DNA of 64,000 bases from Deltaproteobacteria bacterium (GCA_947445035.1 CANFCK010000014.1:55178-119177), one strand, 5' to 3'; positions 7,564-30,002 are shown, counted from the stretch's first letter. A program made the numbers and translations. Notes: generated from the sequence alone by a model not told the origin.

Positions 7564-9321
7564 TCACTCGGTGTTCCGCACGTGCAGCTCCACCAACTGC
7601 TTGGGATCGACGGGACTGGGGGCGCCCGACATCAGGTCTTGCGCGCTGGCGGTCTTGGGGAACGCGATGACCTCGCGAATGTTGTCGGTGCCGCACAGGA
7701 GCATGGCCATGCGGTCAAAGCCGAAGGCGAGGCCGCCGTGGGGGGGCGCGCCGTGGCGCAGCGCGTCGAGCAGGAAGCCGAACTTCTGCTCGGCGTCCTC
7801 GGGAGTCATGCCGAGCGCGGCAAAAACCTTGCTTTGTACTTCGGGATCGTGGATGCGGATGCTCCCGCCGCCAATCTCGTACCCGTTGCACACCAGATCG
7901 TAGGCGTCGGCGAACATCTCGCCTTCGCGGCCCGTGCCCATCAAGGCGATGTGCTCGGGACGGGGACTGGTGAAGGGGTGGTGGACGGCCATCCAGCGGC
8001 CGCTGTCCTCGTCCAGCTCGAAGCTCGGGAAATCGACCACCCACACGAACGAGAACCCCGGCGGGAGGAGGGCGAGCTCCTTCGCCACCGCGGCGCGCAA
8101 CTTCCCGAGGCCGGCGTTGACTGCTGCGTAGGTCCCCGCGCCGAGAAGCACGAGGTCGCCGTCCGCCGCGCCCGACGCCGCTACGATGCCGCTCTGTTCG
8201 GCCTCGGAGAGCTTTGCGAGCGGTCCGGTCCACGGCGCGCCGACCTTGCCGTAGAGCAAGCCGCCCAGCTTGTAGGTACGCACGAACAAGGTCCACGCGT
8301 CGAGCTGCTTGCGGCTGACGCTGGCCCCGCCGCCTTTGACCACGAAAACCTTCGCGATGCCGCCAGCATCGAGCGGCCCGCGCACCACGCCGAAGTCGGT
8401 GGTCCGCAGCAGTTCGGTGACGTCGGCGTGTTCCATGCCGAAGCGGGTGTCGGGGGAGTCAACGCCGAAACGTGCGATCGCCTCGGTGTAGGAGATCGCC
8501 GCGATCTCGCCGATGTCGTGGTCAAGCATCTCCTTCCACACCGTGCGTACCAGCTTGGTGGCGAGCTCCATGACCAGCGCGCGGGTGGCGAAGCTGACCT
8601 CGATGTCGATCTGGGTGAACTCGGGCTGGCGGTCGGCGCGCAAGTCCTCGTCGCGGAAACACTTCACGATCTGGAAGTACCGGTCCATCCCGGCGACCAT
8701 GAGGATCTGCTTGAAGATCTGTGGGCTCTGCGGGAGCGCGTACCACTGCCCGGCGTGCACCCGACTGGGCACGAGGTAGTCGCGCGCACCTTCGGGCGTG
8801 GCCTTGGTGAGGATGGGGGTCTCCACCTCTACGAAGCCCTCACTGTCGAGGTAACGGCGCACCGCGAGCGACGCCCTGTGACGCAGGATCAGGTTCTTTT
8901 GAAGGTCAGGCCGGCGCAGCTCCAGGTACCGGTACTGAAGGCGGAGGTCCTCGTTCGCCGAGATGTGCCCCTCGATCGAAAAGGGCAGGGGGGGCGTGCG
9001 CGAGAGGATGGTGACCGAGTCGGCGACGACCTCGACGAGTCCCGTGGCCAGCTTCGCATTGGGGCTGGCCCGCATCGCCACGGTGCCTTCGACCTCGACG
9101 ACGTACTCCAGGTGCACGCTTGCCGCTGCCTGGCGCACGTCGTCACGACAGCGTTCGTCGGCGACGACCTGGATGATCCCGTGCCGGTCGCGCAGGTTGA
9201 TGAACACGACGCCACCCATGTCGCGGGCGTTCTGCGCCCAACCCTGCAAGACGACGCGGCGGCCGACGTCATCAGGACGGAGCGCTCCGCAGGTGTGGGT
9301 GCGGCGGGCGTTGTCGAACAT
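7564..9321 (-). CDS. aspS: Aspartyl-tRNA synthetase
   Basis: 585 aa. The N-terminal OB-fold region (MFDNARRTHTCGALRPDDVGRRVVLQGWAQNARDMGGVVFINLRDRHGIIQVV) and the class II core motifs (FRDEDLRADRQPEFTQIDIE; GGGSIRIHD...FGFLLDAL) are present. Confidence 0.95.
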   Translation of the reverse strand: MFDNARRTHTCGALRPDDVGRRVVLQGWAQNARDMGGVVFINLRDRHGIIQVVADERCRDDVRQAAASVHLEYVVEVEGTVAMRASPNAKLATGLVEVVADSVTILSRTPPLPFSIEGHISANEDLRLQYRYLELRRPDLQKNLILRHRASLAVRRYLDSEGFVEVETPILTKATPEGARDYLVPSRVHAGQWYALPQSPQIFKQILMVAGMDRYFQIVKCFRDEDLRADRQPEFTQIDIEVSFATRALVMELATKLVRTVWKEMLDHDIGEIAAISYTEAIARFGVDSPDTRFGMEHADVTELLRTTDFGVVRGPLDAGGIAKVFVVKGGGASVSRKQLDAWTLFVRTYKLGGLLYGKVGAPWTGPLAKLSEAEQSGIVAASGAADGDLVLLGAGTYAAVNAGLGKLRAAVAKELALLPPGFSFVWVVDFPSFELDEDSGRWMAVHHPFTSPRPEHIALMGTGREGEMFADAYDLVCNGYEIGGGSIRIHDPEVQSKVFAALGMTPEDAEQKFGFLLDALRHGAPPHGGLAFGFDRMAMLLCGTDNIREVIAFPKTASAQDLMSGAPSPVDPKQLVELHVRNTE

Positions 9322-9367
9322 GGTGGGTCCAGGAAGGCGTGCGACCTAACCCGGCCTCCGGCCTCGT

Positions 9368-12300
9368 TCAGTACGCTTCGAGGTTGTCGTACCCGCTGCG
9401 GCAGCCCGGCTCATCGGCGTCGGTGAAGCTGTTGATGTCGTTGTCGACGTCGTCATTGCACTGGTAGTCGCCCGAGAACGCCGCGGGATCCCCGCAGGCG
9501 ATGGTCTCGGTGTCGGTGATGGGCGTGGCGCAATCGGGGTCGAGCACGTCAACCCAGCCGTCGCAGTCGTCATCGAGGCCGTTGTTGCACGTGGTGGGCG
9601 GGTCGACCTCGTCGGCGTCGGCACCGCTTTCGCAGCCCCAGTCGCCAGCGTCGACGAGGCCGTCAGCGTCGTCGTCGAGGCCGTTGTTGCAGGCCTCGGT
9701 GCCGAGGCCGTCGTCCTCGAACAAGTCGGTGCCGGTGGTGCAGACCGGGTCGTCGGTGTCGGTCCAGCCGTCGCCGTCGTCGTCGTCTCCGTCCATACAC
9801 TCGGGGGTGTGGATCTCGTCGCCGTCGAGCGCGCTTTCGCACCCGGGGTCGTCGGCGTCGGTGAGGGTGTCGCTGTCGGTGTCGTCGCCGTCGTTGCAGA
9901 CGAAGTCGGTGTCGAGGCCCGCTTCTTCGCCGAGCCAGGCGCAGTCGGGGTCGTCGTTGTCGATCCAGCCGTCACCGTCGTCGTCGGTGCCGTCGACGCA
10001 GCTGGGGCCGCCGGCCGCGGACGGGGTTTCGAGGTTGTCGTCGGCGTCGAGGCAATCGCTGTCGTCAGCGTCTGTGGTGCCGTCGCCATCGTTGTCCAGG
10101 CCGTCGTGGCACTCGGCGGGCCCGACCGCGCCGCGTTCGGCGGTGGCGACCACGCAGTCGGGATCGTCACTGTCGGTCCACCCGTCGCCGTCGTTGTCGC
10201 TGCCGTCGGCGCAGACCGCGGCGGGGTCGTTCTCGGCGTCGTCGTTGCCGCTTTCGCAGCCGGGGTCGTCGGCGTCGGTGAGGCCGTCGCCGTCGTCGTC
10301 GAGGCCGTTGTTGCAGCCGAGCGCGGAGTAGCCGCTGGCGTCACAGTCGGGGTCGTCGTCGTCGGTCCAGCCGTCCCCGTCGTCGTCGCTGAGGTCGGTG
10401 CAGTCGCTGCCGACGCTTGCTTCGTCGTTGTCGAGGCCGTCGTCGCAGTCACTGTCGTCGGCGTCGGCCAAGCTGTCGCCGTCGTCATCGAGACCATCGC
10501 TACACGCGGAGGCCGCATAGCCGTCGCCTTCGGAGCCGCCGAGGGCACAGTCGGCGTCGTCTTCGTCGGTCCAGCCGTCGCCGTCGTCGTCGGCACCATC
10601 GGTGCACGAGGCGCTCCCCGCCGCTTCGTCGCCGTCGGTAGCGTCGTCACAGTCGACGTCGTCGGCATCGACGTCGCCATCGCTGTCGTCGTCTTCGCCG
10701 TCGTTGCACGCGCTGCTGCCAAAGCCGACCTCGTCGCCGTCGAGGGCGCAGTCGGGGTCTTCGTCGTCGGCCCAGCCATCACCATCGTCGTCGCTGCCGT
10801 TGTCGCAGTCGTCCGGGGTGGCGCTCTCGTCGTCGTCCCAGCCGACCGCGCAGGAGCTGTCGTCGGCATCGATGGTGCCGTCGTGGTCGTCGTCGATGCC
10901 GTTGTCGCACTCCCGGGTGCCGGCGCCGAGCTCATCGCCGACGGTGCCGCAGTCGACGTCGTCGCCGTCGGCCCAGCCATCGCTGTCGTCGTCGACGCCG
11001 TTGACGCAGTCGTCCGCGGCGGCGTCTTCGACCGGATCGACGGCGCTGGCGCAGCCCGTATCGGCCGCGTCGAGGATGTGGTTGCCGTCGTTGTCGGTGC
11101 CGTCGTTGCACTCGCCAGAGCCGAAGCCAAGCTCGTCGGTGCCGCCGTCGCAGTCGGGGTCGTCGGCGTCGCTCCACCCGTCGCCGTCGCTGTCGGCACC
11201 GTCGAAGCAGTCGCCGCTGGGGTCCTCTTCGTCTTCGTCGTCGGCGCTGGCACAGCCAGGATCGTCGGCGTCGATGGCGCCGTCGCTGTCGTCATCGTCG
11301 CCGTCGTTGCACACGGTGGTGCCGAAGTCCAGTTCGTCGTCACCGGTGGCACAGTCGGGGTCGTCCGCGTCGGTCCAGCCGTCCAGGTCGCCGTCGCTTC
11401 CGTCGGTGCAGTCGGTGGAGGCGCTGTCCTCGATGGTGTCTGCGGCCGAGGCGCAATCGAGGTCGTCGCGGTCGACGAGCCCGTCGCTGTCGTTGTCGGC
11501 GCCGTCGTTGCACCCGGCGTCCGAGAGCCCGGCCTCGGAGGTTCCGTCGTCGCAATCGGGGTCGTCGGCGTCCGTCCAATCGTCGGCGTCGTTGTCGAGC
11601 CCGTCGCTGCAGCCGGTGATCGGGTCTTCTTCGTCGTTGTCGTTGCCGGCGCTACAGCCGGGGTCGTTGCTGTCGGTCAGCCCGTCGCCGTCGTCGTCGC
11701 TGCCGTTGTTGCAGTCGTAGGTGCTGGTCGAGGGGGCTTCGGTGGGGCCCACCGAGCTTGCGCAGGCTGGGTCGTCGGTGTCGGTCCAGCCATCGCTGTC
11801 GTCGTCGAGTCCGTTGGCGCAGGCGTAGTCGGTCTCGTAGTCGTCGAGCGCCTCGCTGCACTCCGGATCGAGCCAATCGACGAGCCCATCGGGGGTGGCT
11901 TCGTTGTCGAGGCCGTCGTTGCACTCGGTCGCGCCAAAACCGATCTCGGTCAGGCCCGCGGTGCAGTCGGGGTCCTCGTCGTCGAGCCAACCGTCCCCAT
12001 CTTCATCGACCCCGTTGTCGCAGTCACTCGCTTCGGCCGGGGTGATCGCGAAAAAGCAGAGCGCGTCGCCAGCGTCAAACGTCAGGTCGCCGTCGTTGTC
12101 GACGCCGTCGTTGCATTCGCCGGTGCCGTAGCCGACCTCCTCGCTGCCGGTGGTGCAGTCGGGGTCGGCGCTGTCGGTCCACCCGTCGCCATCGCCGTCA
12201 ACGCTGTCGTTGCAGCCGTCGGTCTCGTCGTCGTCGAGCGCGTCGTCGCACGCGGCATCGTCGGCGTCGCGCTGCCCGTCGGCGTCGTTGTCTTCGTTGT

Positions 12301-13633
12301 CGTTGCAGGCAGTCTCGCCGAAGCTACGCTCGGTGCCGAGGCTGTCGCAGTCGGGGTCGGCGGCGTCGGTCCAGTCGTCGCCGTCGTTGTCGTAGCCGTC
12401 TTCGCAATCGCCCAGCTCAGAGGCGTCGTAGGCGTTGGCGCAGTCTTTGTCGAAGGCGTCCGCAAAGCCGTCGCCGTCGTCGTCGGCGCCGTTGCTGCAC
12501 GCGTCCGCGTTGTCGATGCCGCCTTCGTCGTCGTCGAGCAGGCTGGCGCAGCCCGGGTCGTTCAGGTCGGTCCAGCCGTCACCGTCGTTGTCGAGGTCGT
12601 CGGCACAACGGTTGAGCTCGCTGTCGTCGGTGGCGGACTCGCAGCCGGCATCGTCGTTGTCGATTTTGCCGTCAAGGTCGTCGTCGATGCCGTTGTTGCA
12701 CAAGGTGTCGCTGATGGAGATCTCGACGTCGCCGACGTAGCAGTCGGGGTCATCTTCGTCGGCCCAGCCGTCGCCGTCGTTGTCGAGGCCGTCGGCGCAG
12801 GGGGGGGTGAACTCGTCGTCGTCGAGCGCGGAGTCGCATTGGCGATCGTCGGCGTCGAGGTCGCCGTCGAGGTCGTTGTCCTCGTTGTCGTTACACTGCG
12901 TCGGCCCAAAGCCCAGCTCGTCGTCCAGGTCCGCGCAGTCGGGATCGTCGAGGTCGCTCCACCCGTCAACGTCGTTGTCCTTGCCGTCTTCGCAGGGGCC
13001 CGCCTCGGCCAGCCCGAAGGCATCCTCACAGCGGTCGTCGGTGCCGTCTTTGCCGCCGTCGCTGTCGTTGTCGATGCCGTCATTGCACTCGTTGAGTCCG
13101 AAGCCGGCCTCGGCCGTGCCTTCGAGGCAATCCGGGTCGGCCGCGTCTACGAAGCCGTCGTTGTCGCCATCGCGGAGGTCGTGGCACCCATCGACGGGCG
13201 TCTCCAGCGGGACCATCGTGAAGCGAATATTCTGGACCTCGTCCACGACGAACGCCAGCGGCCCGTAGGTTGCCGACCCCACGGTGAGCACGTCGTCTTC
13301 CCACCCGGCGCCGCTGAGCGAGAAGGAGGCGTCGCTGTTTCCTTGGTGGAGTTCGACCGAGGCGAAGGCGCCGTCGCGCACGACGACGTTGACGCGGCAT
13401 TCCAGCGCGGCGTCGTCGAGCACCCAGTCGGCGAGGCAATCGTCGTCAGCGGTGGTGAGCGCGACGCCGTCGGCGTTGGTGTAGGGCTCGGACGGGTCGA
13501 CGAAGAGCGCGAACGTACTGCCCGCGGCAAGCGCCTCGTCGCCGTCGATGGTCACGACAATGGCGGTGCGGTCGTCACCCTCGGAGGTGCAGGCGGCGAG
13601 GAGGAAGGAGACAAACAAGGAGCGAGCCATCAT
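9368..13633 (-). CDS. Giant polyanionic lipoprotein of ~1,420 aa. It has a ~190-aa N-terminal domain followed by ~50 tandem ~22-aa Cys-bracketed Asp-rich motifs (C-[NE]-D-G-x-D-N-D-x-D-G-x-x-D-x-x-D-x-x-C), which resemble TSP type-3 / MopE-like putative Ca2+/metal-binding repeats.
   Basis: - The likely start is the internal ATG ATG at 13633 (MMARSLFVSFLLAAC, lipobox LAAC) rather than the ORF-track start at 13753.
- That start overlaps the stop of the upstream PEGA gene (ATGA).
- The repeats alternate two unit types, e.g. ECNDGIDNDSDGGKDGTDDRC and GPCEDGKDNDVDGWSDLDDPDC.
- The DNA is a GAC/GTC-rich near-periodic array. Confidence 0.8.
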   Translation of the reverse strand: MMARSLFVSFLLAACTSEGDDRTAIVVTIDGDEALAAGSTFALFVDPSEPYTNADGVALTTADDDCLADWVLDDAALECRVNVVVRDGAFASVELHQGNSDASFSLSGAGWEDDVLTVGSATYGPLAFVVDEVQNIRFTMVPLETPVDGCHDLRDGDNDGFVDAADPDCLEGTAEAGFGLNECNDGIDNDSDGGKDGTDDRCEDAFGLAEAGPCEDGKDNDVDGWSDLDDPDCADLDDELGFGPTQCNDNEDNDLDGDLDADDRQCDSALDDDEFTPPCADGLDNDGDGWADEDDPDCYVGDVEISISDTLCNNGIDDDLDGKIDNDDAGCESATDDSELNRCADDLDNDGDGWTDLNDPGCASLLDDDEGGIDNADACSNGADDDGDGFADAFDKDCANAYDASELGDCEDGYDNDGDDWTDAADPDCDSLGTERSFGETACNDNEDNDADGQRDADDAACDDALDDDETDGCNDSVDGDGDGWTDSADPDCTTGSEEVGYGTGECNDGVDNDGDLTFDAGDALCFFAITPAEASDCDNGVDEDGDGWLDDEDPDCTAGLTEIGFGATECNDGLDNEATPDGLVDWLDPECSEALDDYETDYACANGLDDDSDGWTDTDDPACASSVGPTEAPSTSTYDCNNGSDDDGDGLTDSNDPGCSAGNDNDEEDPITGCSDGLDNDADDWTDADDPDCDDGTSEAGLSDAGCNDGADNDSDGLVDRDDLDCASAADTIEDSASTDCTDGSDGDLDGWTDADDPDCATGDDELDFGTTVCNDGDDDDSDGAIDADDPGCASADDEDEEDPSGDCFDGADSDGDGWSDADDPDCDGGTDELGFGSGECNDGTDNDGNHILDAADTGCASAVDPVEDAAADDCVNGVDDDSDGWADGDDVDCGTVGDELGAGTRECDNGIDDDHDGTIDADDSSCAVGWDDDESATPDDCDNGSDDDGDGWADDEDPDCALDGDEVGFGSSACNDGEDDDSDGDVDADDVDCDDATDGDEAAGSASCTDGADDDGDGWTDEDDADCALGGSEGDGYAASACSDGLDDDGDSLADADDSDCDDGLDNDEASVGSDCTDLSDDDGDGWTDDDDPDCDASGYSALGCNNGLDDDGDGLTDADDPGCESGNDDAENDPAAVCADGSDNDGDGWTDSDDPDCVVATAERGAVGPAECHDGLDNDGDGTTDADDSDCLDADDNLETPSAAGGPSCVDGTDDDGDGWIDNDDPDCAWLGEEAGLDTDFVCNDGDDTDSDTLTDADDPGCESALDGDEIHTPECMDGDDDDGDGWTDTDDPVCTTGTDLFEDDGLGTEACNNGLDDDADGLVDAGDWGCESGADADEVDPPTTCNNGLDDDCDGWVDVLDPDCATPITDTETIACGDPAAFSGDYQCNDDVDNDINSFTDADEPGCRSGYDNLEAY

Positions 13634-14679
13634 GGGAGCGTCACGACTACGTCGCCTTCGGGCGCCGGTGCGGGTTGGTTGGCGGCGACAACGACGGCGG
13701 CGGTGGTCCCGGCCGCGACGGCGCCGCCCCCGACTGCGGCCCAGAAGCCCCACTGTTGGGTGAGCGGCTTCGCCTCGACGACCGTCTTTTCTGTGGTGCG
13801 GGCGAGGACAGATCCTGAGCTTGGAACCTCGACCCTGCCGCTGACCGAACGACTGTCGGTAGTGACGGTGATCTCCGTCTTGCCGCGGCCCACCCCCACG
13901 ACCTTCACCGTTGTGCCCCGACCGACCTCGACCCCGTTGAAGAACACGGTGGCGTCGGGGTTCCCTGTGCTGACGTTCACTTCGGCTCCGCCTTTGTTCA
14001 TCGTCGCATCGACGGTGCCGCGGATGCCGGCGGTTGTGTCCACCTTCTTGTAGGTCGTGGCGTAGCCGTCGAGCGTGACCTCCACGCCGTGCACACCTGG
14101 GGCGATGTCGCGCACCTTGACCGGCGTGACGCCGAGGTCCTTGCCGTCGAGGCGGACCGTGGCCCCCGCTGGGTTGGAGGTGACCGCGACCACGCCGACA
14201 CTGGACTCCAGTGCGATGGCGACGAGGTAGTTGCGCCCCTTGACCAGGGGGATCGTGCCGCTACCGGCTTCGAAGTTCGGCGCCTGTCCCTGCCACACGA
14301 GGCTGCCGGCGCCGGGCGATGGGAGGCGGACGGGAACCGGAAAGGTCTGGCCGTTGACGCTGACGGTGGTCCCGACCGCGCCGGTGAACTCGACCGAGCC
14401 GGGTCCCGCCGTCATCGCGGCGGTCAGCTCGAGCGTCTTGCCGGCCTGCACCTCGATCTGGCGGACGAACGGCTCGAAGTTGTCCGCGACGATGCGGAGC
14501 TTGTGCGCCCCGACCGCCACATACTTGGTGAGCGGTGCGGCGCCGAGCATCGTGCCGTCGAGGTACACCTCCGCCCCTGCCGCCGAAGCGGAGATCTTCA
14601 CGGCCCCGGTGGGGTCGGCCGCAGACGCCGGGAGCACGAGGCCGACTAAAAAGAGCCACAACGCGAGCAGGGACATGGT
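13630..14679 (-). CDS. PEGA-domain secreted protein, translationally coupled to the downstream giant acidic lipoprotein
   Basis: The start at 14679 gives MSLLALWLFLVGLVLPASAADP, a signal peptide. There are at least three PEGA-like units (VYLDGTMLGAAPL..., VRLDGKDLGVTPVKVRDIAPGVHGVEVTLDGY, VFFNGVEVGRGT). The stop TGA overlaps the start of the next gene (CCATGATGG). Confidence 0.8.
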   Translation of the reverse strand, partial: TMSLLALWLFLVGLVLPASAADPTGAVKISASAAGAEVYLDGTMLGAAPLTKYVAVGAHKLRIVADNFEPFVRQIEVQAGKTLELTAAMTAGPGSVEFTGAVGTTVSVNGQTFPVPVRLPSPGAGSLVWQGQAPNFEAGSGTIPLVKGRNYLVAIALESSVGVVAVTSNPAGATVRLDGKDLGVTPVKVRDIAPGVHGVEVTLDGYATTYKKVDTTAGIRGTVDATMNKGGAEVNVSTGNPDATVFFNGVEVGRGTTVKVVGVGRGKTEITVTTDSRSVSGRVEVPSSGSVLARTTEKTVVEAKPLTQQWGFWAAVGGGAVAAGTTAAVVVAANQPAPAPEGDVVVTLP

Positions 14680-14746
14680 GTGGCAGGGTACCACGACAGC
14701 GCGGCACTCTGAAACGTTTCGGGGCCTGCGGCATTGGAGCGGCGGC

Positions 14747-16039
14747 ATGCATCACGTCATCGTCGGGAACTCGATTGCGGGCATCGAAGCGGCGTTGGTC
14801 ATTCGTCGTCGGGACGAGTCGGCGCGGATCACCCTGGTTTCGGCCGAATCGGACCACCCCTTCGCTCGCACGGCGATGATGTACGTCTTCTGTGGGCAGT
14901 TGCGGCAAGCGGACACCGAGTTTTACGATCGGGGACTCTACGAGCGGATGCGATTCGAGCGCGTGCGCGACCGCGTCGTGGGCGTTGACTGCGCCGGCCG
15001 CCGCGTGCTTCTGGAGCGGGTCGGGGCGCTCGGCTACGACCGTCTGCTCCTGGCCATCGGGAGCGCGGCGCGTCGGTTGACCCTCGCCGGCGCCTATGAT
15101 GGACCCGGTGTCTTCCACTACGTGTCCCTCCAGGATCACGTTGCCCTCGATGTCGCAGCGAAGGCGGGGCTGCGAGCCGCGGTGATTGGCGGGGGGCTCA
15201 TCGGGGTGGAGGTCGCGGAGATTTTGCACGCGCGTGGGCTACGCGTGCACTGGTTGGTGCGCGACGCGTGGACGTGGCCAGTGGCGCTGGACCGCGACGA
15301 GGCCGCGATCGTCGAGGCGCACGTGCGAGATCACGGGGTGGACGTTCGAGCGGCGACGGAGGTGACCAGGCTCGATCGCGGCTCGGCGTTGAAGCTGACG
15401 CTTGGCGTGGAGGAGCCGCTGGAGGTCGACCTCGTCGTGGGCGCGGTCGGCGTGGTGCCCAACACCCGGTTTCTGGTGGGCTCGGACGTTGCGCTTTCGG
15501 TGGACGGGGGGGTCGAGACCCGCGCCGACTTGTCCAGCACGAGCGTGCCCGACGTTTACGCCGCTGGGGACTGCGCAACGGTGACTTGGGCGGACGGGAG
15601 CCGCCGCCCTGAGACCCTGTGGTACACCGCACGGGACCAGGGCCGAGCGGCGGGGGCCGCGATGGTCGGAGATTCGGTGAACTACCGTCGTAGCACCTGG
15701 TATAACTCGGCGAAGTTCTTCGATCTCGAGTACACCACTGCGGGCTACGTGCCGCTGGCCGAGCCGGCGCGACGTGATCCGACTCCGGGCCACTGGCAGA
15801 CGTGGTTTCAGCAGCATCCAAACGAAGCTGCGAGCCTACGAATCGTGGCGAAGGACGACCGCGTGGTGGGCTTCAACGCGCTCGGGCGACGGTGGAGCAC
15901 CGAGGTCTGGTTGCGGTGGATCCACGAGCGGCGGACGTTGGCGTGGGTACACCATCACCTCGCGGAGTCGAGCTTCGACGAGGAATTCATCGAGCCGTTC
16001 CCGGTGCTTCCCTCGGCGATTTTGCACGAGGGCGCCTGA
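14747..16039 (+). CDS. FAD/NAD(P)-dependent pyridine nucleotide-disulfide-family oxidoreductase with a ~110-aa C-terminal extension
   Basis: The start at 14747 gives MHHVIVGNSIAGIEAALVIRR, a Rossmann GxGxxG-type motif. A second dinucleotide-binding motif is present (AAVIGGGLIGVEVAE), along with ...VYAAGDCA. The gene is divergent from the PEGA gene by a 67-bp intergenic region. Confidence 0.8.
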   Translation: MHHVIVGNSIAGIEAALVIRRRDESARITLVSAESDHPFARTAMMYVFCGQLRQADTEFYDRGLYERMRFERVRDRVVGVDCAGRRVLLERVGALGYDRLLLAIGSAARRLTLAGAYDGPGVFHYVSLQDHVALDVAAKAGLRAAVIGGGLIGVEVAEILHARGLRVHWLVRDAWTWPVALDRDEAAIVEAHVRDHGVDVRAATEVTRLDRGSALKLTLGVEEPLEVDLVVGAVGVVPNTRFLVGSDVALSVDGGVETRADLSSTSVPDVYAAGDCATVTWADGSRRPETLWYTARDQGRAAGAAMVGDSVNYRRSTWYNSAKFFDLEYTTAGYVPLAEPARRDPTPGHWQTWFQQHPNEAASLRIVAKDDRVVGFNALGRRWSTEVWLRWIHERRTLAWVHHHLAESSFDEEFIEPFPVLPSAILHEGA

Positions 16040-17391
16040 TGCAAGCCGGCCTGCTCGACACCTGGAAACGGCCATCCCGGGCCCGCGGCGCAACCGCCTG
16101 GGGCGCAGCGGGGATTCTCACAAGCTTCTACCTGCTCTTGTACCTGCCGGAGAGCATGTTCACTCCCAATTTTCCGGACGTACTCAGCCCCGTGGCCGAG
16201 GCGCTGCACCTGCCGTCGAAGTGGTTTCTGTACGGGTTGCTCTACTCGATTGCCATGGTCGTGGGCGGCTTCTTCATGCTGCGGAAGCACGGCAACAGCC
16301 GCTACCATCGCATCCGCACGGTGACGGTGGTCACGGTGCAGATCGTGCTTGGGTTCTCGTTGCCCTTGGCCCTGAGTATCGCCGGAAAACCGGAGTTGTA
16401 CCTAAGCTACGTGTGGCCGCTGTCCTACGACAAGCTCTTTCCCGACACCCTGGCAGCCATGCCCGCGGCCGCGGCGCTGTGGTTCATCTTCGCGTCGTTG
16501 GTGCTGTTTCCGGCGTTGGCGTGGCGGTACGGCAAGCGCTTCTACTGCTCGTGGGTGTGTGGCTGCGGCGGTCTGGCCGAGACCTTCGGCGACGGGTGGC
16601 GCCACCTTTCCGACAAGTCGACGAAGGCGTGGCGGTTCGAACAATGGAGCGTCCACGGAGTCCTGGTCCTCGTTCTCGTCATGACCGGGCTGGTGATCGC
16701 CGATGGGATCAGCCGCTCGGGAATGGTGGTGGCGGCGGGCGGTGCCGAGGGGGAGCGCGTGGCGTTGTCGGCGCGGCTGGCGCAGGAGGCGACCTCGCTG
16801 ACCGAGTTGTCCGTCGCAGAGCTGGCGCCGCGGGCGGAGGGGATCCGTCGTGACGTAGAGGCCACGTTGCCGCCGACGTGGGTCATCGACAAGCTCGCTC
16901 CCGTCGAGGTTGCAGCGACGGCGGGCGACGCAGTGGCCATGGCCTCGGCGGTGAAGGACCTAGCCTACGGAGTGATGCCGGGCTCGCCGCTCGGGCGCGC
17001 AGCGGGGACGGTGAAGGGGCTGTACGCGTTCTTCATCGGGGCGCTTTTCTCGGGAGTCGCCGGCGTGGGCCTTTACCCGCTGATGGGCACGCGGGTCTGG
17101 TGCCGTTTCGGCTGTCCGATGGCCGCGATCCTGGGCCTGGTCCAGAAGCTCGGCCGCTTCCGCATCGCCGTGAAAAAGGACATGTGCATCAGCTGTGGGA
17201 ACTGCTCGGCCTACTGCGAGATGGGCATCGACGTTCGCGCCTACGCGATGGCCAACCTGGATATCCGTCGCGCCAGCTGCGTCGGCTGTGGCATGTGCGC
17301 CCACGTCTGCCCCCGAGGGGTTTTGCGGCTGACGAACGAGGCCGACGTCGGCCCCGGGGAACGCGTTGGGGAGTGGGTTGTGGAGATTTGA
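16039..17391 (+). CDS. Membrane-bound 4Fe-4S polyferredoxin (CcoG/NapH-like), coupled to the upstream oxidoreductase
   Basis: The ATG at 16039 overlaps the upstream stop (TGATG). The protein has multiple TM helices, a 'FYCSWVCGCGG' Cys cluster, 'VWCRFGCPMAAILG', and two ferredoxin-type CxxCxxCxxxCP motifs (CISCGNCSAYCE; CVGCGMCAHVCP). Confidence 0.8.
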   Translation: MQAGLLDTWKRPSRARGATAWGAAGILTSFYLLLYLPESMFTPNFPDVLSPVAEALHLPSKWFLYGLLYSIAMVVGGFFMLRKHGNSRYHRIRTVTVVTVQIVLGFSLPLALSIAGKPELYLSYVWPLSYDKLFPDTLAAMPAAAALWFIFASLVLFPALAWRYGKRFYCSWVCGCGGLAETFGDGWRHLSDKSTKAWRFEQWSVHGVLVLVLVMTGLVIADGISRSGMVVAAGGAEGERVALSARLAQEATSLTELSVAELAPRAEGIRRDVEATLPPTWVIDKLAPVEVAATAGDAVAMASAVKDLAYGVMPGSPLGRAAGTVKGLYAFFIGALFSGVAGVGLYPLMGTRVWCRFGCPMAAILGLVQKLGRFRIAVKKDMCISCGNCSAYCEMGIDVRAYAMANLDIRRASCVGCGMCAHVCPRGVLRLTNEADVGPGERVGEWVVEI

Positions 17392-18037: not shown

Positions 18038-19363
18038 ATGCGCCTCCGTCTGCTGGTCGCCTGCACGCTGTTCGCCTTTGGCTGTGTCGAGAACAACCTG
18101 AACGTTGCCTCCACCACGGTGGCGGTGAACCCCGGGCTTCTGGACCTCGGCACCGCGGCCCCGGGCAGCTCGGTCTCGGGAACCCGCTCGATCAGCAGCG
18201 TCGGGCTCGGGGCGCTGACGGTTGCGTCGCTGACGGTCGCTGGCAACGACGCCGACGCCTTCGTCGTCGATGGCGACTTCGGCGGCACGCTGCTCGCCAA
18301 AGGCGATTCGCTGGAGGTGCCGATCCCGTTTGCGCCGACCAGCGAAGGCGCCTGGGAGGCCGATCTTACCGTGCAGACCGATGCCAACAGCGGCGTCGCG
18401 GCGGTCGAGGTCCACCTTCGCGGGTTCGGGGCGTCGCCAAGGCTGGTCATCTCGCCGAACGCCGTGGACTTCGGCCACGTCGATCCCGGTCCCGACGTTT
18501 TCCAGACGGTGGTATTGCAGTGTGTCAGCGCGGTGGGCGCGACCCTGCTCACCGCAGAGCTGAGCGGCGACCTCGAGTTCTACCTCGTCCCCGTCACGAC
18601 GCCGGCGTTGATCACCAGCGCCACGACCTTGGAGCTAAGCGTCTCCTTCGGTCCCACCGACACCGCCGCGCGGGAGGGCGTGCTCACCCTGACCACGGAC
18701 GACCCCCAAACAGCCAGAGTCCTGATTCCCGTGACGGCAAACGTCTGCCTCGGGGACGCGGCGCTGGACCTGGACAGCGACGGCTATTCCGGGTGCGCGG
18801 GAGACTGCGATGATGCCGATGCCAGAGCGGTTCCGGGAGGGGACGAGCGCATCGACGGCACCGACAACGACTGCGATGGCCTCGTCGACGAGGGTACGGA
18901 CGCCTACGATGACGACGGCTTCACCGAGCGGGGCGGGGACTGCGACGACACCACCGCCAGCACCTCTCCCGGTGCGCCCGAGATTCCCGACGGCCTCGAC
19001 AACGACTGCGACGGGGATGGGTACGACGAAGCCGCCGGCGATTGCGACGCCGCCGACGCCGCCATCAATCCGGGCGCCACCGAGACGCCTTACGACGGCA
19101 TCGACCAGGATTGCTCCGGGGCCGACCTCACCGATGCCGACGGCGACGGCGTCTCCCCCGACGATGGCGACTGTGATGACGGCGGAGGGGCCGCAAATCG
19201 AGATGGAGGACGGTCCCTTCGCGTACTCGGACTGGGCGCGCGGCGCGGCGCGGGTTGCGGGGCTGCTGAGCGATTGGCGCGGCGCGGGTGGTCACTCAGC
19301 CAGAAGGCGGCAGGACCGCATCGCGCCGCGCCTTCGGCCGCGTGCGCTGCCGGTTCGCATTAG
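18038..19363 (+). CDS. Secreted lipoprotein with an N-terminal beta-rich domain and C-terminal MopE-type putative metal-binding motifs. The 3' ~60 codons are doubtful.
   Basis: MRLRLLVACTLFAFGC provides a lipobox. Repeated 'DxDxDGYSGCAGDCDDADARAVPGGDERIDGTDNDCDG' and 'GDCDDTTASTSPGAPEIPDGLDNDCDG' match the PF11617-like pattern. The tail after ~19190 becomes Arg/Gly-rich and overlaps the next gene, so the true stop may be earlier or a frame change may be present. Confidence 0.6.
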   Translation: MRLRLLVACTLFAFGCVENNLNVASTTVAVNPGLLDLGTAAPGSSVSGTRSISSVGLGALTVASLTVAGNDADAFVVDGDFGGTLLAKGDSLEVPIPFAPTSEGAWEADLTVQTDANSGVAAVEVHLRGFGASPRLVISPNAVDFGHVDPGPDVFQTVVLQCVSAVGATLLTAELSGDLEFYLVPVTTPALITSATTLELSVSFGPTDTAAREGVLTLTTDDPQTARVLIPVTANVCLGDAALDLDSDGYSGCAGDCDDADARAVPGGDERIDGTDNDCDGLVDEGTDAYDDDGFTERGGDCDDTTASTSPGAPEIPDGLDNDCDGDGYDEAAGDCDAADAAINPGATETPYDGIDQDCSGADLTDADGDGVSPDDGDCDDGGGAANRDGGRSLRVLGLGARRGAGCGAAERLARRGWSLSQKAAGPHRAAPSAACAAGSH

Positions 19364-22849: not shown

Positions 22850-23935
22850 CTACATCGACACCACTTCGGCATGCAGCCCGCCCGCGCGGCGCATGCTCTG
22901 AAGGATGACGATCAGGTCGCGCGGGGTGACGCCCATCGCGTTGAGGGCGCTGACGACGTCACCGACGGTGGTTCCCTTGACGAGGATTAGCTTGCCAGCG
23001 TCTTCGCGGACGCGCACCTCGGTGTTGGTGACCGTGGTCGTCTCTCCCGCTGCGAGCATGCCGGGCTGGCTGACCTGGGTCTGTCGCGACACATCGATGG
23101 TGAGGCCCCCGTGGGCGATGGCGACCGGGGACAGGGGGATGTCCGCCCCCATCACCACGGTGCCGGTCCGCTCGTTGACGACCACGCGCAGCACGTGGTC
23201 GAGCTGGACCTCCAACGCCTCTACCGTGGCGATGAATTCGGCCTGACGGCCCAGGTAGTCGTCGGGGACATGCACCATGACGGTGCCGTTGTTCAGCGCG
23301 CGAGCCGTTTCCGGTCCCAGGAGCGCGTTGACTACCGTGGCCACCCGAGCGGAGTTGGTGAAGTCGGGGTCGTGGAGGATCCACTCGAACTGGACCTGCT
23401 CGGTCACCCGAAGACGGTTGGGGATCTCCCGACTGACGCTGGCGCCGCCGGGGATCACGCCTACCGTGGGGTGGTTCCGGGTTGTCTCGTTGCCACCTCC
23501 GGAAACCGAGTAGCCGCCGACGGTGAGCGGGCCCTCGGCGATGGCGTAAACCTGATTTCCGGCGTGCAGCTCCGTCAGGAGTAGGACACCGCCCTCCAAG
23601 GACTTTGCGTCTGCCACCGACATCACGGTGACGTCGAGCTTGCTGCCGGACCGAGCGCCCGCCGGGAGGGTGGCGGAGATCATCACCATCGCCACGTTGC
23701 GCGACTTGATCGCGTCGTCTTGCAGCGAAATCCCCAACGGTGGGAGGCGCGCCTCCAGGGCCCTGATGGTACCGATGTTCTGGGAGCTGTCCCCGCTCTT
23801 GTTGAGGCCGACGACCAGGCCGTAGCCGACCAGCGGGTCGTCATGGATGCCGTAGATACTGGCGAAGTCTTTGAGCCGCGCGGCCTCGGCCGGGGACGAA
23901 AGGACGAGGAGCAGACATCCGAGCAGCGGCGCCAT
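22850..23935 (-). CDS. flgI: Flagellar P-ring protein FlgI, orphaned away from flgH/flgA
   Basis: 361 aa. A signal peptide is followed by 'ARLKDFASIYGIHDDPLVGYGLVVGLNKSGD', the conserved FlgI N-terminus, with the FlgI signature running through to the C-terminus. Confidence 0.9.
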   Translation of the reverse strand: MAPLLGCLLLVLSSPAEAARLKDFASIYGIHDDPLVGYGLVVGLNKSGDSSQNIGTIRALEARLPPLGISLQDDAIKSRNVAMVMISATLPAGARSGSKLDVTVMSVADAKSLEGGVLLLTELHAGNQVYAIAEGPLTVGGYSVSGGGNETTRNHPTVGVIPGGASVSREIPNRLRVTEQVQFEWILHDPDFTNSARVATVVNALLGPETARALNNGTVMVHVPDDYLGRQAEFIATVEALEVQLDHVLRVVVNERTGTVVMGADIPLSPVAIAHGGLTIDVSRQTQVSQPGMLAAGETTTVTNTEVRVREDAGKLILVKGTTVGDVVSALNAMGVTPRDLIVILQSMRRAGGLHAEVVSM

Positions 23936-28913: not shown

Positions 28914-30002
28914 TCAGGCCGAGCCTGCCCGCGCGGCGTGTGCTTGGGCCCGGCGCCGGTACACGACCGCCAGCACTTGGGCCACGGCGCCGTAGAACTC
29001 GGCGGGGATTGGGAGGCCCAGACGGGACTTCGCGTACAGCGCGCGCGCCAGGGTTCGGTTCTCGATGATCGGCACTTCGTGGCGGTTGGCCTCCGCGCGA
29101 ATCTTGAGGGCGAGGTGATCGACCCCTCGGGCGAGCACGATCGGTGCGCCGCTCTGATCTTTGCGGTAACGCAGCGCGATGGCGTAGTGGGTGGGGTTGA
29201 CCACCACGACGTCGGCCTCCTGGACCTTGCGGAGCATCTGCCCCGTGGCCAGCTGACGTTGTCGCTGACGACGTTTCGCTTTGACCTGGGGATTGCCTTC
29301 CTGCTCCTTGTGCTCCTGCTTCACTTCCTGCTGGGTCATCCGCATCTGCTCGGCCAGCTGGAAACGTTGCCACCCGTAATCGGCGGCGCCGATCGCGAGC
29401 GTCACGGGCAGCACCCGCTGGAAGAAGCTTTGGATCAGCTCGGTCATGAACTCGAGCTGCCCCCGCACGTCCACCGCGGCGATGACCGGCAGGGCATCCA
29501 ACCGCGTCTCGATGGCGGACCACGCGGCCCAGGATACCGCGGTCGCGACCGCCAAACCCTTGATGAGGGCGACGACCGGCTGGACACTGAAGAAGTGGCT
29601 CTTGGCGTTCTCCAGCGGATCCAGCCGCTCGAGCTTGGGCACCAGCGCGTCGGGAGCGACGTTGAACCCGGTGACCAGCAGCCCGGCGATGATCGTGGAG
29701 AACGTGCTCGCCGCGAGCACCAGCAACAGCGGCGGCCCGAGGTTCACGGCGATGGCGAGGGCCACGTTGCTTACGTCTTCCTGCGTCAATTCGTGATCGC
29801 TGATCCGGTCGTTGAGGGCGTCGAACAGGCCGTAAAAGCCGGCGCTGAACAGTGGAAACGCCGCGAGCAACGAGCCGGCGCCCACGGTCAGCCCGATCGC
29901 GGCGGACAGCTCCTTGCTCTGGGCGACCTTGCCCTCGTCGCGGAACTGTTGGATCTTCCGTTCACTGGCGTCCTCGGTTTTTTCCTGCTCGGAATCAGCC
30001 AC
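28914..30002 (-). CDS. flhB: Flagellar export apparatus protein FlhB
   Basis: A GTG at 30002 gives MADSEQEKTEDASERKIQQFRDEGKVAQSKEL. TM helices are present and the NPTHYA autocleavage motif (VVVVNPTHYAIALRY) is present. Confidence 0.9.
   Translation of the reverse strand: MADSEQEKTEDASERKIQQFRDEGKVAQSKELSAAIGLTVGAGSLLAAFPLFSAGFYGLFDALNDRISDHELTQEDVSNVALAIAVNLGPPLLLVLAASTFSTIIAGLLVTGFNVAPDALVPKLERLDPLENAKSHFFSVQPVVALIKGLAVATAVSWAAWSAIETRLDALPVIAAVDVRGQLEFMTELIQSFFQRVLPVTLAIGAADYGWQRFQLAEQMRMTQQEVKQEHKEQEGNPQVKAKRRQRQRQLATGQMLRKVQEADVVVVNPTHYAIALRYRKDQSGAPIVLARGVDHLALKIRAEANRHEVPIIENRTLARALYAKSRLGLPIPAEFYGAVAQVLAVVYRRRAQAHAARAGSA

What the first reader, a model, noticed from the sequence alone, without database searches (positions are those of the whole stretch)
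9368..14679. PEGA protein and a ~1,420-aa polyanionic lipoprotein built from ~50 tandem Cys-bracketed Asp-rich (TSP3/MopE-like) motifs, translationally coupled
The 13630-14679 PEGA protein ends in CCATGATGG, so its TGA overlaps the ATG ATG of a lipoprotein (LAAC lipobox). The lipoprotein has a ~190-aa N-terminal domain followed by an almost uninterrupted array of ~22-residue units, C-[NE]-D-G-x-D-N-D-x-D-G-x-x-D-x-x-D-x-x-C. The unit combines the Dx[DN]xDGxxDxxD calcium-binding signature of thrombospondin type-3 repeats with the Cys framing of myxobacterial MopE-type metal-binding motifs. The protein would be extremely acidic, with Asp probably above 25%, and would carry more than 100 Cys. An array this long and regular is unusual. 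Plausible roles are a cell-surface divalent-cation sponge or buffer, an S-layer or matrix scaffold, or a biomineralisation component. The PEGA partner is a surface-layer-associated fold. The same motif also occurs in two other lipoproteins in this window (18038-19363; 26584-28896), which suggests lineage-specific expansion.
Basis: partly seen in the sequence, partly recalled or inferred. Interest (0 to 1): 0.7.

Follow-up and report, generated by a model that had tools for sequence, protein, structure and literature searches.

The report
Giant calcium-binding lipoprotein with PEGA partner
A real, conserved two-gene unit in uncultured freshwater "deltaproteobacteria" encodes a membrane-anchored PEGA protein and a 1,421-residue, 28%-aspartate lipoprotein made of 38 small disulfide-closed modules that match the calcium-binding cysteine-rich domain of animal teneurins; the module type is already catalogued and widespread, but this partnered, length-conserved version has never been studied.

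Summary
The PEGA gene's TGA overlaps the ATG of a 1,421-aa lipoprotein (lipobox LLAAC) with 28.3% Asp and net charge about -462.

Three details are wrong:
- There are 38 units of 20 residues (C-x18-C) separated by 10-17-residue linkers, not ~50 units of 22.
- There are 81 Cys, not more than 100.
- The N-terminal domain is ~134 aa, not ~190.

The units alternate between two types, giving a 67-aa super-repeat.

Pfam's MopE (PF11617) and TSP3 (PF02412) models do not hit. NCBIfam NF033662 ("acidic double-disulfide repeat") hits at 2.3e-129. The closest solved structure is the teneurin-4 C-rich domain (7PLP). It binds three Ca2+, and its ligands and 19-residue disulfide spacing align with the unit.

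The gene is not an artefact. The repeats are diverged (~69% at DNA level), dN/dS is 0.13, and the identical protein is called on six contigs.

The PEGA-to-array pair is kept in all 11 related loci examined, down to 30% PEGA identity. Arrays have 31-39 units, or 21 in one subclade.

The repeat family itself is large: 10,345 cluster representatives, with arrays reaching about 50 profile matches.

Best reading: a Ca2+-stiffened, disulfide-stapled envelope rod that works with its PEGA partner. The function is inferred, not shown.

The parts
13630..14676 (-). PEGA-domain protein, 348 aa from the ATG at 14676 (alternative GTG start at 14694). It has a signal peptide, 3 Pfam PEGA matches, a C-terminal hydrophobic segment and a conserved ...VVTLP end.
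   Evidence: PF08308 matches at E 4.6e-36 in 3 stretches. The ortholog alignment shows a conserved Met start and a conserved C-terminus.
14620..14676 (-). Signal peptide of the PEGA protein (MSLLALWLFLVGLVLPASA|ADP).
   Evidence: This is the highest Kyte-Doolittle window, 2.14. An A-x-A site is conserved in orthologs. The cleavage site is inferred.
13681..13752 (-). C-terminal Gly/Ala/Val-rich hydrophobic segment of the PEGA protein (WGFWAAVGGGAVAAGTTAAVVVAA), a putative membrane anchor.
   Evidence: Kyte-Doolittle value is 1.71 over 19 aa. The segment is conserved down to 30-34% identical orthologs. Its role as an anchor is inferred.
13630..13633 (-). ATGA overlap: the PEGA stop codon TGA shares TG with the lipoprotein ATG.
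   Evidence: The same CCATGA junction is found in L002, L003, L004, L005, L006, L012 and L019. In L007, L020 and L021 it is replaced by a 9-17-nt gap.
9368..13633 (-). Acidic-array lipoprotein, 1,421 aa, 28.3% Asp, 81 Cys.
   Evidence: NF033662 matches at E 2.3e-129. dN/dS is 0.13. The identical protein is called on 6 contigs.
13589..13633 (-). Lipoprotein signal peptide with lipobox (MMARSLFVSFLLAAC, lipidated Cys15; residue +2 is Thr).
   Evidence: The sequence is. A lipobox is kept in every ortholog: LAAC, LAGC, FLAC, LGAC, LLGC.
13187..13588 (-). Lineage-specific N-terminal domain (residues 16-149) with two conserved Cys (C66, C79). Its fold is unknown.
   Evidence: It is conserved in orthologs. 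Only 2 fragments were found among 5.8 billion proteins. The AlphaFold2 model failed, pLDDT 36.
9401..13186 (-). Array of 38 Cys-bracketed acidic units (residues 150-1411). Two unit types alternate, linkers are 10-17 aa, and the super-repeat is 67 aa.
   Evidence: The unit profile matches the teneurin-4 C-rich domain 7PLP at E 4.7e-6.
9494..9589 (-). Variant unit 38 (residues 1349-1380, CNNGLDDDCDGWVDVLDPDC...C). It has an inner Cys and a fourth Cys 12 residues downstream. It is the only MopE-like, four-Cys unit.
   Evidence: Cys spacing is. It matches the MopE regular expression.
9322..9367 (-). 46-nt spacer between the lipoprotein stop and the aspS start. No terminator-like site was found on this strand.
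7564..9321 (-). aspS (aspartyl-tRNA synthetase), immediately downstream on the same strand.
   Evidence: PF00152 matches at E 2e-117. The adjacency is kept in 7 of the 10 distinct loci where it could be checked.

Best explanation
The two genes form a translationally coupled cell-envelope module.

The PEGA protein is exported by a cleavable signal peptide. It displays three to four beta-sandwich PEGA domains outside the cytoplasm and is held by a C-terminal hydrophobic segment.

The second product is exported by Sec and lipidated on Cys15. With no Asp or Lys at +2, it probably goes to the outer membrane. In the oxidising envelope, each of its 38 twenty-residue units is closed by one disulfide (Cys1-Cys20). 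Each unit folds around at least two Ca2+ ions using the side chains of D3, D6, N/D7, D8, D10, D14, D17 and D19, as in sites I and II of the teneurin C-rich domain and in thrombospondin type-3 repeats.

The outcome is a Ca2+-dependent string of rigid knots with no regular secondary structure. It would hold roughly 76 or more Ca2+ per molecule, and its length, not only its charge, is under selection. It most likely serves, together with the PEGA partner, as a structural rod, tether or spacer of the envelope or cell surface.

Shown here: the genes, their coupling, the lipobox, the unit anatomy, the homology to a solved Ca2+ domain, purifying selection, and conservation of the partner and of unit number.

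Inferred: disulfide pairing, Ca2+ stoichiometry, localisation, physical interaction with the PEGA protein, and the structural role.
For: Anatomy and composition.

Family assignment: NF033662 matches at 420.7 bits against a cut-off of 41, in 35 stretches.

Structural reference:
- The unit profile matches 7PLP (teneurin-4 C-rich domain) at E 4.7e-6 and also matches the other teneurins.
- The alignment CxDGxDNDGDGWtDadDPDC / CGDSKDNDGDGLVDCMDPDC places every acidic ligand named in PMC9058538 (D840, D843, N844, D845, D847, D851, D854, D856) on a conserved D/N of the unit.
- It places the C838-C857 disulfide, spacing 19, on the unit's two Cys.
- The AlphaFold2 model of four units has pLDDT 70 and essentially no helices or strands, as expected for a metal-organised loop.

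Selection: dN/dS is 0.09 in units, 0.18 in linkers and 0.15 in the N-terminal domain.

Positional orthology: window versus L006 is 68% identical, collinear, with no long gap blocks. Same-index units are 69% identical against 43% for other pairs.

Partner conservation: the PEGA-to-array pair is present in all 11 distinct loci examined.

Unit number (C-x18-C pairs): 31 to 39 across lineages whose PEGA is only 30-45% identical, and 21 in one subclade. Indels come in two-unit blocks.
Against: - There is no experimental datum for any member of this subfamily.
- Ca2+ binding is inferred from a 20-residue alignment to a domain that has three disulfides, whereas the unit has one.
- One subclade works with 21 units, so the length constraint is not absolute.
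- After loading about 76 Ca2+ the protein would still carry roughly -300 net charge, which also fits a low-affinity cation sink.
- The PEGA C-terminal segment is only moderately hydrophobic and has no flanking basic residues, so its topology is uncertain.
- Nothing shows that the two proteins touch each other.
Confidence: 0.45

Rival explanations
1. It is a high-capacity, low-affinity divalent-cation buffer or reservoir (calsequestrin-like) tethered in the periplasm or on the surface. On this view only the total number of carboxylates matters, and the PEGA protein merely anchors or organises it.
For: The protein has 402 Asp plus 79 Glu, net charge about -462 and pI about 4. The linkers are also acidic. 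The host lineage comes from freshwater lakes, where Ca2+/Mg2+ supply can be low (record titles).
Against: A pure sponge needs neither a precise ligand geometry nor disulfides. Yet ligand positions and Cys are invariant and the units evolve under the strongest constraint, dN/dS 0.09. Units are positionally orthologous and their number is held at 31-39 in most lineages. This is not expected if only bulk charge counted.
Confidence: 0.2
2. It is a surface-exposed adhesin or fibril that binds prey cells, particles or matrix, with the Ca2+ modules acting as a stalk. Related array proteins carry LTD, PKD, IPT/TIG, PPC or beta-helix domains.
For: Family members combine the units with typical extracellular binding domains. 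The positional homologs in the distant subgroup (P0001, L007) add LTD domains after the array. A fully extended chain of 38 units would probably be longer than a periplasm is wide (inference).
Against: The window protein has no recognisable binding domain apart from the orphan 134-aa N-terminal domain, which sits next to the lipid anchor rather than at the distal tip. No surface-export system for lipoproteins is identified nearby.
Confidence: 0.2
3. It is a biomineralisation nucleator or inhibitor, that is, an Asp-rich template for Ca carbonate or phosphate.
For: The Asp content is extreme. This rival rests on analogy with Asp-rich mineral-associated proteins (general knowledge, not tested here).
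Against: There are no neighbouring genes for carbonate chemistry or compartment formation. The ordered, disulfide-closed ligand cages are unlike the disordered poly-Asp stretches of mineral proteins.
Confidence: 0.05
4. It is a copper-binding MopE-type protein.
For: It shares the C-x-DG-x-DND-x-DG core with the PF11617 motif, hhalign probability 65%. Two neighbouring genes carry true PF11617 motifs.
Against: PF11617 does not match the protein at E<=1. The protein has only 6 His in 1,421 residues. In the solved homologous domain the shared core binds Ca2+ (PMC9058538).
Confidence: 0.03
5. It is an artefact: a collapsed or expanded repeat assembly, or a shadow ORF in high-GC DNA.
For: The opposite strand carries a 1,414-aa ORF. 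Repetitive genes are prone to misassembly.
Against: Repeats are only about 69% identical at the DNA level. The identical protein is called on six contigs. Collinear orthologs of exactly the same length occur in L002 and L006. GC3 is 0.85 in the minus-strand frame. dN/dS is 0.13.
Confidence: 0.01

Closest known systems
NCBIfam NF033662, 'acidic double-disulfide repeat-containing protein'
   Same: The protein scores 420.7 bits against a cut-off of 41, with 35 repeat matches. This is the curated family that the array belongs to by sequence.
   Different: The family is a repeat definition with no known function. The name implies four Cys per repeat, but 37 of the 38 units here have only two Cys. 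The model's own definition could not be read.
Teneurin C-rich (cysteine-rich) Ca2+-binding domain, PDB 7PLP (Meijer et al. 2022, PMC9058538)
   Same: It is the best solved-structure match, profile E 4.7e-6. It has the same C-x18-C disulfide spacing. All acidic ligands of its Ca2+ sites align with conserved D/N of the unit. The DNDGDG and DPDC submotifs are identical.
   Different: Teneurin has one copy with six Cys (three disulfides) and three Ca2+. Here there are 38 tandem copies with one disulfide each. The counterpart of ligand E835 (position -3) is not conserved, so a third site is doubtful. The unit does not pack on a fused TTR domain.
Thrombospondin/COMP type-3 repeats (PF02412; PDB 1UX6)
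   Same: The DxDxDGxxDxxD signature is shared. Per PMC9058538, the geometry of two Ca2+ sites is the same as in the teneurin homolog. Both are long tandem arrays that fold only around Ca2+ and lack regular secondary structure.
   Different: There is no Pfam match at E<=1. No thrombospondin chain was retrieved by the unit profile at E<=10. The Cys framework and the unit/linker organisation differ.
MopE-type 'putative metal-binding motif' (PF11617), as in the neighbouring genes 18038-19363 and 26584-28896
   Same: It shares the core C-x-DG-x-D-N-D-x-DG-x-x-D, hhalign probability 65% over 16 columns. Tucker et al. 2012 (PMC3278476) had already aligned the teneurin core with this motif. Unit 38 has the MopE inner Cys.
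   Different: PF11617 does not match the protein. MopE motifs have an upstream DCDD...P segment and the DNDCDG inner Cys, and they lack the closing DPDC.
Other acidic-array proteins from metagenomes (for example P0002 at 2,271 aa and P0155 at 3,359 aa)
   Same: They have the same alternating two-unit super-repeat, and many have lipoboxes. Their unit-profile match counts are 44 and 50, higher than this protein's 35 NF033662 stretches; P0002 has 31 strict-pattern units.
   Different: Those examined (P0002, P0005, P0006, P0008, P0013) have no PEGA partner and no shared N-terminal domain.

Membership tests
NCBIfam NF033662 acidic double-disulfide repeat | Score above the curated cut-off with multiple repeat matches | tested here: met
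   420.7 bits against a cut-off of 41, E 2.3e-129, 35 stretches.
NCBIfam NF033662 acidic double-disulfide repeat | Two disulfides (four Cys) per repeat, as the family name implies | tested here: inconclusive
   37 units have two Cys per ~33-aa period. Only unit 38 has four. The model's definition text is not available, and top family members show the same two-Cys period.
Teneurin C-rich Ca2+-binding domain | Significant sequence similarity to the solved domain | tested here: met
   Profile against 7PLP gives E 4.7e-6. Teneurin-2, -3, -4 and -m are also hit.
Teneurin C-rich Ca2+-binding domain | Conservation of the acidic Ca2+ ligands (D840, D843, N844, D845, D847, D851, D854, D856) | tested here: met
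   Alignments combined with the column counts. D6, D8, D14 and D17 are invariant or nearly so, D10 is >=94%, position 3 is always D/N, and D19 is present mainly in type-A units.
Teneurin C-rich Ca2+-binding domain | Six Cys forming disulfides 1-3, 2-5 and 4-6 | tested here: not met
   Only the Cys1 and Cys3 equivalents (spacing 19) are present. The position of teneurin C852 is A, S or D in the units.
Teneurin C-rich Ca2+-binding domain | Actual binding of Ca2+ | not testable with these tools
   Needs biochemistry or a structure with metal.
Pfam PF11617 Cu-binding_MopE motif | Match to the Pfam model | tested here: not met
   Zero Pfam families at E<=1 for the protein, while the two neighbours score 1e-23 and 1.7e-24.
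Pfam PF11617 Cu-binding_MopE motif | DNDCDG inner Cys and upstream DCDD..P..E segment | tested here: not met
   Absent from 37 of 38 units. Only a 16-column core is shared.
Thrombospondin type-3 repeat (PF02412) | Match to the Pfam model or to solved thrombospondins | tested here: not met
   No Pfam hit at E<=1. No thrombospondin or COMP chain at E<=10 with the unit profile.
Thrombospondin type-3 repeat (PF02412) | DxDxDGxxDxxD calcium signature | tested here: met
   Positions 6 to 17 of the unit.
Bacterial lipoprotein | Signal peptide ending in a lipobox [LVI][ASTVI][GAS]C | tested here: met
   MMARSLFVSFLLAAC. Conserved in all orthologs.
PEGA domain protein (PF08308) - the partner | Match above the Pfam gathering score | tested here: met
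   123 bits against 20.8, 3 stretches.

The most novel reading that the evidence does not exclude
The PEGA protein and the 38-module array together build a previously undescribed Ca2+-dependent envelope or surface structure. In it the array acts as a length-defining rod or ruler, with unit number held at about 31-39 across deeply diverged lineages. Its unit would be the bacterial prototype from which the teneurin C-rich domain was acquired, together with the YD shell, rather than from a diatom as proposed in 2012.
Probability: 0.15. Interest if true: 0.7.

Novelty: new member of a known kind. Interest (0 to 1): 0.45.

Why it matters
The repeat unit is catalogued (NF033662) and is found in more than 10,000 protein clusters. 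Searches of the paper library found no paper that mentions the repeat family by name and no functional study of these proteins.

This locus offers the cleanest handle on the family. It is almost a pure array, with a fixed partner gene, translational coupling, and a natural 38-versus-21-unit contrast between sister clades.

It also links a very abundant bacterial module to a solved animal Ca2+ domain, which gives a concrete structural hypothesis: at least two Ca2+ and one disulfide per 20 residues.

It bears on the origin of the teneurin cysteine-rich domain as well. The 2012 proposal of an algal source was made before this bacterial diversity was visible.

Tried and rejected
- Pfam scan of the array protein: no family at E<=1, so the suggested PF11617 and PF02412 tests are negative.
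- Literature search for the NCBIfam family name: no papers. Searches for PEGA plus lipoprotein and for Asp-rich Ca-binding lipoproteins in myxobacteria: nothing relevant.
- N-terminal domain:
  - No similarity among the 120 best array hits.
  - Only two fragments in the 5.8-billion-protein search.
  - The AlphaFold2 model was useless, pLDDT 36, so no fold search was made.
- Four-unit AlphaFold2 model (pLDDT 70):
  - Foldseek against the PDB gave only 5WTL, the periplasmic portion of a Capnocytophaga OmpA, at E 4.6, which is not significant. From my own memory, unchecked, that chain carries TSP3-like repeats.
- PEGA protein against PDB sequences: nothing. The idea that PEGA, as a transthyretin-like fold, mirrors the TTR domain on which the teneurin C-rich domain packs rests only on faint CarboxypepD_reg co-hits and on fusion proteins P0014 and P0079. 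I do not claim it.
- aspS coupling. I considered that the Asp-richest gene (402 Asp codons) is functionally tied to the aspartyl-tRNA synthetase gene just downstream. The adjacency holds in 7 loci, including one whose AspRS is only 49.6% identical. It is broken in L019 and L021 and interrupted by four genes (about 4 kb) in L020. It is therefore at most ancestral synteny or an optional operon, not a requirement.
- RNA elements: no Rfam family in the window. No terminator-like site between the array gene and aspS on the coding strand.
- Concerted evolution or recent expansion of the array: rejected.
- Assembly artefact and shadow ORF: rejected.


Full report
**Observation**

On the minus strand, an ORF from 13633 to 9368 encodes 1,421 residues beginning MMARSLFVSFLLAAC, a signal peptide ending in a canonical lipobox. 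The upstream ORF is a PEGA protein: PF08308, E 4.6e-36, three matched stretches. It ends ...ctc cca TGA tgg, so its stop codon shares two bases with the lipoprotein's ATG.

The PEGA start is the conserved ATG at 14676.

The lipoprotein is 28.3% Asp, 12.5% Gly and 5.7% Cys (81 Cys). It has only 19 Lys+Arg, a net charge near -462 and a computed pI near 4. The long plus-strand ORF 9809-14053 is a shadow of this gene. The minus-strand frame has GC3 of 0.85, a strong family match and dN/dS of 0.13 against an ortholog.

**Anatomy of the array**

Cys spacing is strictly periodic: 19, then 10-17, repeated. This defines 37 units of 20 residues (C-x18-C) plus one variant unit with two extra Cys (residues 1349-1380). 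That makes 38 units, not about 50, with a period of about 33 residues, not 22.

The 81 Cys are accounted for as follows:
- 1 in the lipobox
- 2 in the N-terminal domain (C66, C79)
- 74 in the 37 canonical units
- 4 in unit 38

The units alternate between two types. Type A is CxDGxDNDGDGWTDxDDPDC, with Trp or Phe at position 12 and Pro at position 18. Type B is CNDGxDDDxDGxxDADDxxC. The linkers alternate too..E.GFG.. follows type A, and ..A.D.DE.. follows type B. The true repeat is therefore a 67-residue / 201-nt super-repeat, which Tandem Repeats Finder detects at about 69% identity.

The mature N-terminal domain (residues 16-149) is about 134 residues, not about 190.

**What the unit is**

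NCBIfam gives a decisive match to NF033662, 'acidic double-disulfide repeat': 420.7 bits against a cut-off of 41, in 35 stretches.

Against all PDB sequences, the whole protein and a 71-sequence unit profile both pick the teneurin C-rich domain as the best hit. 7PLP scores E 4.7e-6 with the profile, followed by teneurin-2, -3, -4 and Ten-m. No thrombospondin or COMP chain appears at E<=10.

Meijer et al. 2022 (PMC9058538) solved that domain at 1.5 A. It holds three Ca2+ ions, coordinated by E835, D840, D843, N844, D845, D847, D851, D854 and D856 plus three backbone carbonyls. It has a C838-C857 disulfide. Sites I and II have the geometry of thrombospondin type-3 repeats.

In the HMMER alignments (CxDGxDNDGDGWtDadDPDC against CGDSKDNDGDGLVDCMDPDC), every one of those Asp/Asn ligands falls on a conserved D/N of the unit. 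The 19-residue disulfide spacing is identical. E835 has no conserved counterpart, and the other four teneurin Cys are absent.

I therefore infer one disulfide and at least two Ca2+ per unit, which is about 76 or more Ca2+ per molecule.

An AlphaFold2 model of four units, built on an alignment of the window's own repeats, has pLDDT 70 and essentially no helices or strands. That is what a metal-organised loop should look like. Structure searches with this model were uninformative.

**Relation to MopE**

Those motifs have an upstream DCDD..P..E segment and an inner Cys (DNDCDG), and they lack the closing DPDC.

Profile-profile comparison with the acidic unit gives 65% probability over a 16-column shared core, C-DG-DND-DG--D. 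Tucker et al. 2012 (PMC3278476) had already aligned the teneurin core with the PF11617 consensus.

The protein is not a member of either Pfam family. The strict acidic unit occurs nowhere else in the window.

**Not an artefact, and not recently expanded**

- The identical 1,421-aa protein is called on six contigs. The window corresponds to ENA ERZ27265271 k141_626908, 119.6 kb.
- Orthologs in L002 (87.6% identity) and L006 (68%) have exactly the same length and align with no long gap blocks.
- Same-index units between the window and L006 are 69% identical, against 43% for other unit pairs. The best match is the same index for 28 of 37 units. The array is old and positionally stable, with no concerted evolution.
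- dN/dS between the window and L002 is 0.09 in units, 0.18 in linkers and 0.15 in the N-terminal domain.

**The partner and the neighbourhood**

The window neighbourhood reads: SecA..., aspS (7564-9321, minus strand), array, PEGA, then a divergently transcribed pyridine-nucleotide-disulfide oxidoreductase and an Fe-S protein.

Searching genomes, metagenomes and the protein collection with the PEGA protein found about 48 orthologs of 345-386 aa. I examined 11 distinct loci: the window, L002, L003, L004, L005, L006, L012, L007 (which is the same as L016), L019, L020 and L021. In every one, the PEGA gene is followed directly by a lipobox-bearing acidic array.

The ATGA overlap is kept in the closer group and replaced by a 9-17-nt gap in the distant group.

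Counts of C-x18-C pairs per locus:

| Locus | C-x18-C pairs | Note |
|---|---|---|
| Window | 37 | plus the 21-spaced unit 14; 38 units by my annotation |
| L002 | 37 | |
| L012 | 37 | |
| L006 | 36 | |
| L019 | 39 | |
| L020 | 36 | |
| L021 | 37 | |
| L007 | 32 in the main array, plus 2 after the LTD domains | spacing list, |
| L003, L005 | 21 | |
| L004 | at least 5 | contig ends |

The 829-aa forms differ from the 1,421-aa forms mostly by blocks of 64-71 residues, which is whole super-repeats.

Other members of the wider repeat family (P0002, P0005, P0006, P0008, P0013) have no PEGA neighbour. The partnership therefore defines a subfamily.

The PEGA protein has a signal peptide, a near-neutral ectodomain (pI about 8), a conserved Gly/Ala/Val-rich hydrophobic segment near the C-terminus (Kyte-Doolittle 1.71) and a conserved ...V(T/V)LP end.

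**How common the module is**

A window-only unit profile finds 10,345 cluster representatives at E<=1e-3 among 1.84 billion proteins. Of these, 3,701 are at E<=1e-10 and 606 at E<=1e-30. The largest arrays give 50, 44, 43, 41, 37 and 35 matches.

The units are combined with LTD, PKD, IPT/TIG, PPC, beta-helix, CarboxypepD_reg and other extracellular domains, and many of the proteins are lipoproteins. 'Lineage-specific expansion' is therefore not correct, and the length is high but not unique. What is specific here is the nearly pure array, the orphan N-terminal domain and the fixed PEGA partner.

**Mechanism**

The best-supported reading is a Ca2+-stiffened, disulfide-stapled modular rod. It is lipid-anchored in the envelope, and the absence of Asp or Lys at +2 suggests outer-membrane targeting. 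It is made in fixed proportion with a membrane-anchored PEGA protein.

The evidence favouring a structural or length-dependent role over a bulk cation sponge is threefold:
- The ligand geometry and Cys are strictly conserved.
- The units are positionally orthologous.
- Unit number is retained across lineages whose PEGA proteins are only 30-45% identical.

The evidence that keeps the sponge or adhesin readings alive is also threefold:
- A large negative charge remains after Ca2+ loading.
- A subclade functions with 21 units.
- The distant positional homologs carry added LTD domains.

None of these can be separated without experiments.

**Verdict**

The finding is real and mostly well described, with wrong counts. 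It belongs to a catalogued but functionally unknown repeat family. Its best structural reference is the teneurin C-rich Ca2+ domain, not TSP3 or MopE. The conserved PEGA-array module has no mention in the papers I could search and is a good entry point to the family. I rate it as a new member of a known kind, of moderate interest.

Noticed in passing
window 7564-9321 (-) and 9322-9367; loci L002, L003, L005, L006, L012, L007, L019, L020, L021: The gene with 402 Asp codons (360 GAC, 42 GAT) sits 46 nt upstream of aspS (aspartyl-tRNA synthetase) on the same strand, with no terminator-like site between them. The adjacency is kept in 7 loci, including L007, whose AspRS is only 49.6% identical to the window's. 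It is lost in L019 and L021, and four genes (about 4 kb) intervene in L020. It may be old synteny or an optional operon that couples Asp-tRNA supply to demand.
   Followed up: partly
window 9401-13186 (-) compared with PDB 7PLP: The teneurin cysteine-rich Ca2+ domain was proposed in 2012 (PMC3278476) to have come from a diatom or alga. It has more than 10,000 bacterial relatives (cluster representatives) of the same 20-residue core. Since the teneurin YD shell is of bacterial origin, a bacterial source for the C-rich domain deserves a proper phylogeny.
   Followed up: partly
window 18038-19363 (+) and 26584-28896 (-): Two further secreted proteins carry three canonical MopE motifs each (PF11617). 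The first combines them with a choice-of-anchor D / HYDIN-type Ig region. The second combines them with seven FG-GAP repeats. The lipobox of the first (..FAFGC) is not canonical. The second begins MLVLWLAGC and may have an earlier start, since the ORF extends to 29523.
   Followed up: partly
window 22850-23935 (-), 28914-30173 (-): Flagellar genes (FlgI P-ring protein, FlhB export component) are present in an organism whose relatives are labelled 'Deltaproteobacteria' or 'Myxococcales' MAGs from freshwater lakes (record titles). The lineage's exact taxonomy was not resolved.
   Followed up: no
window 13630-13680 (-); L007 4940-4991: The last residues of the PEGA protein (..GDVVVTLP, or ..YVLP in the distant group) are conserved even where there is no overlap with the next gene's start. 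The conservation therefore reflects the protein, not only the overlapping start site. Its role, after a putative membrane segment with no flanking basic residues, is unexplained.
   Followed up: no
proteins P0014 and P0079; PEGA orthologs: Some family members fuse CarboxypepD_reg (transthyretin-like) domains to acidic units, and many PEGA orthologs co-hit PF13620. In teneurin the C-rich domain packs on a TTR domain. A recurrent pairing of the acidic unit with a TTR-like sandwich is possible but untested.
   Followed up: no
window 9809-14053 (+): A 1,414-aa open frame lies antisense to the array gene. It is a shadow ORF produced by the GAC/GTC-rich repeat in 68-70% GC DNA and could be miscalled by gene finders.
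   Followed up: yes
window 14747-17391 (+): A pyridine-nucleotide-disulfide oxidoreductase and a 4Fe-4S protein are transcribed divergently from the PEGA gene, about 52-70 nt apart depending on which PEGA start is used. This pair is also upstream of PEGA in L002, L003, L004 and L005, but not in L006 or in the distant group. No link to the array's many disulfides was tested.
   Followed up: partly
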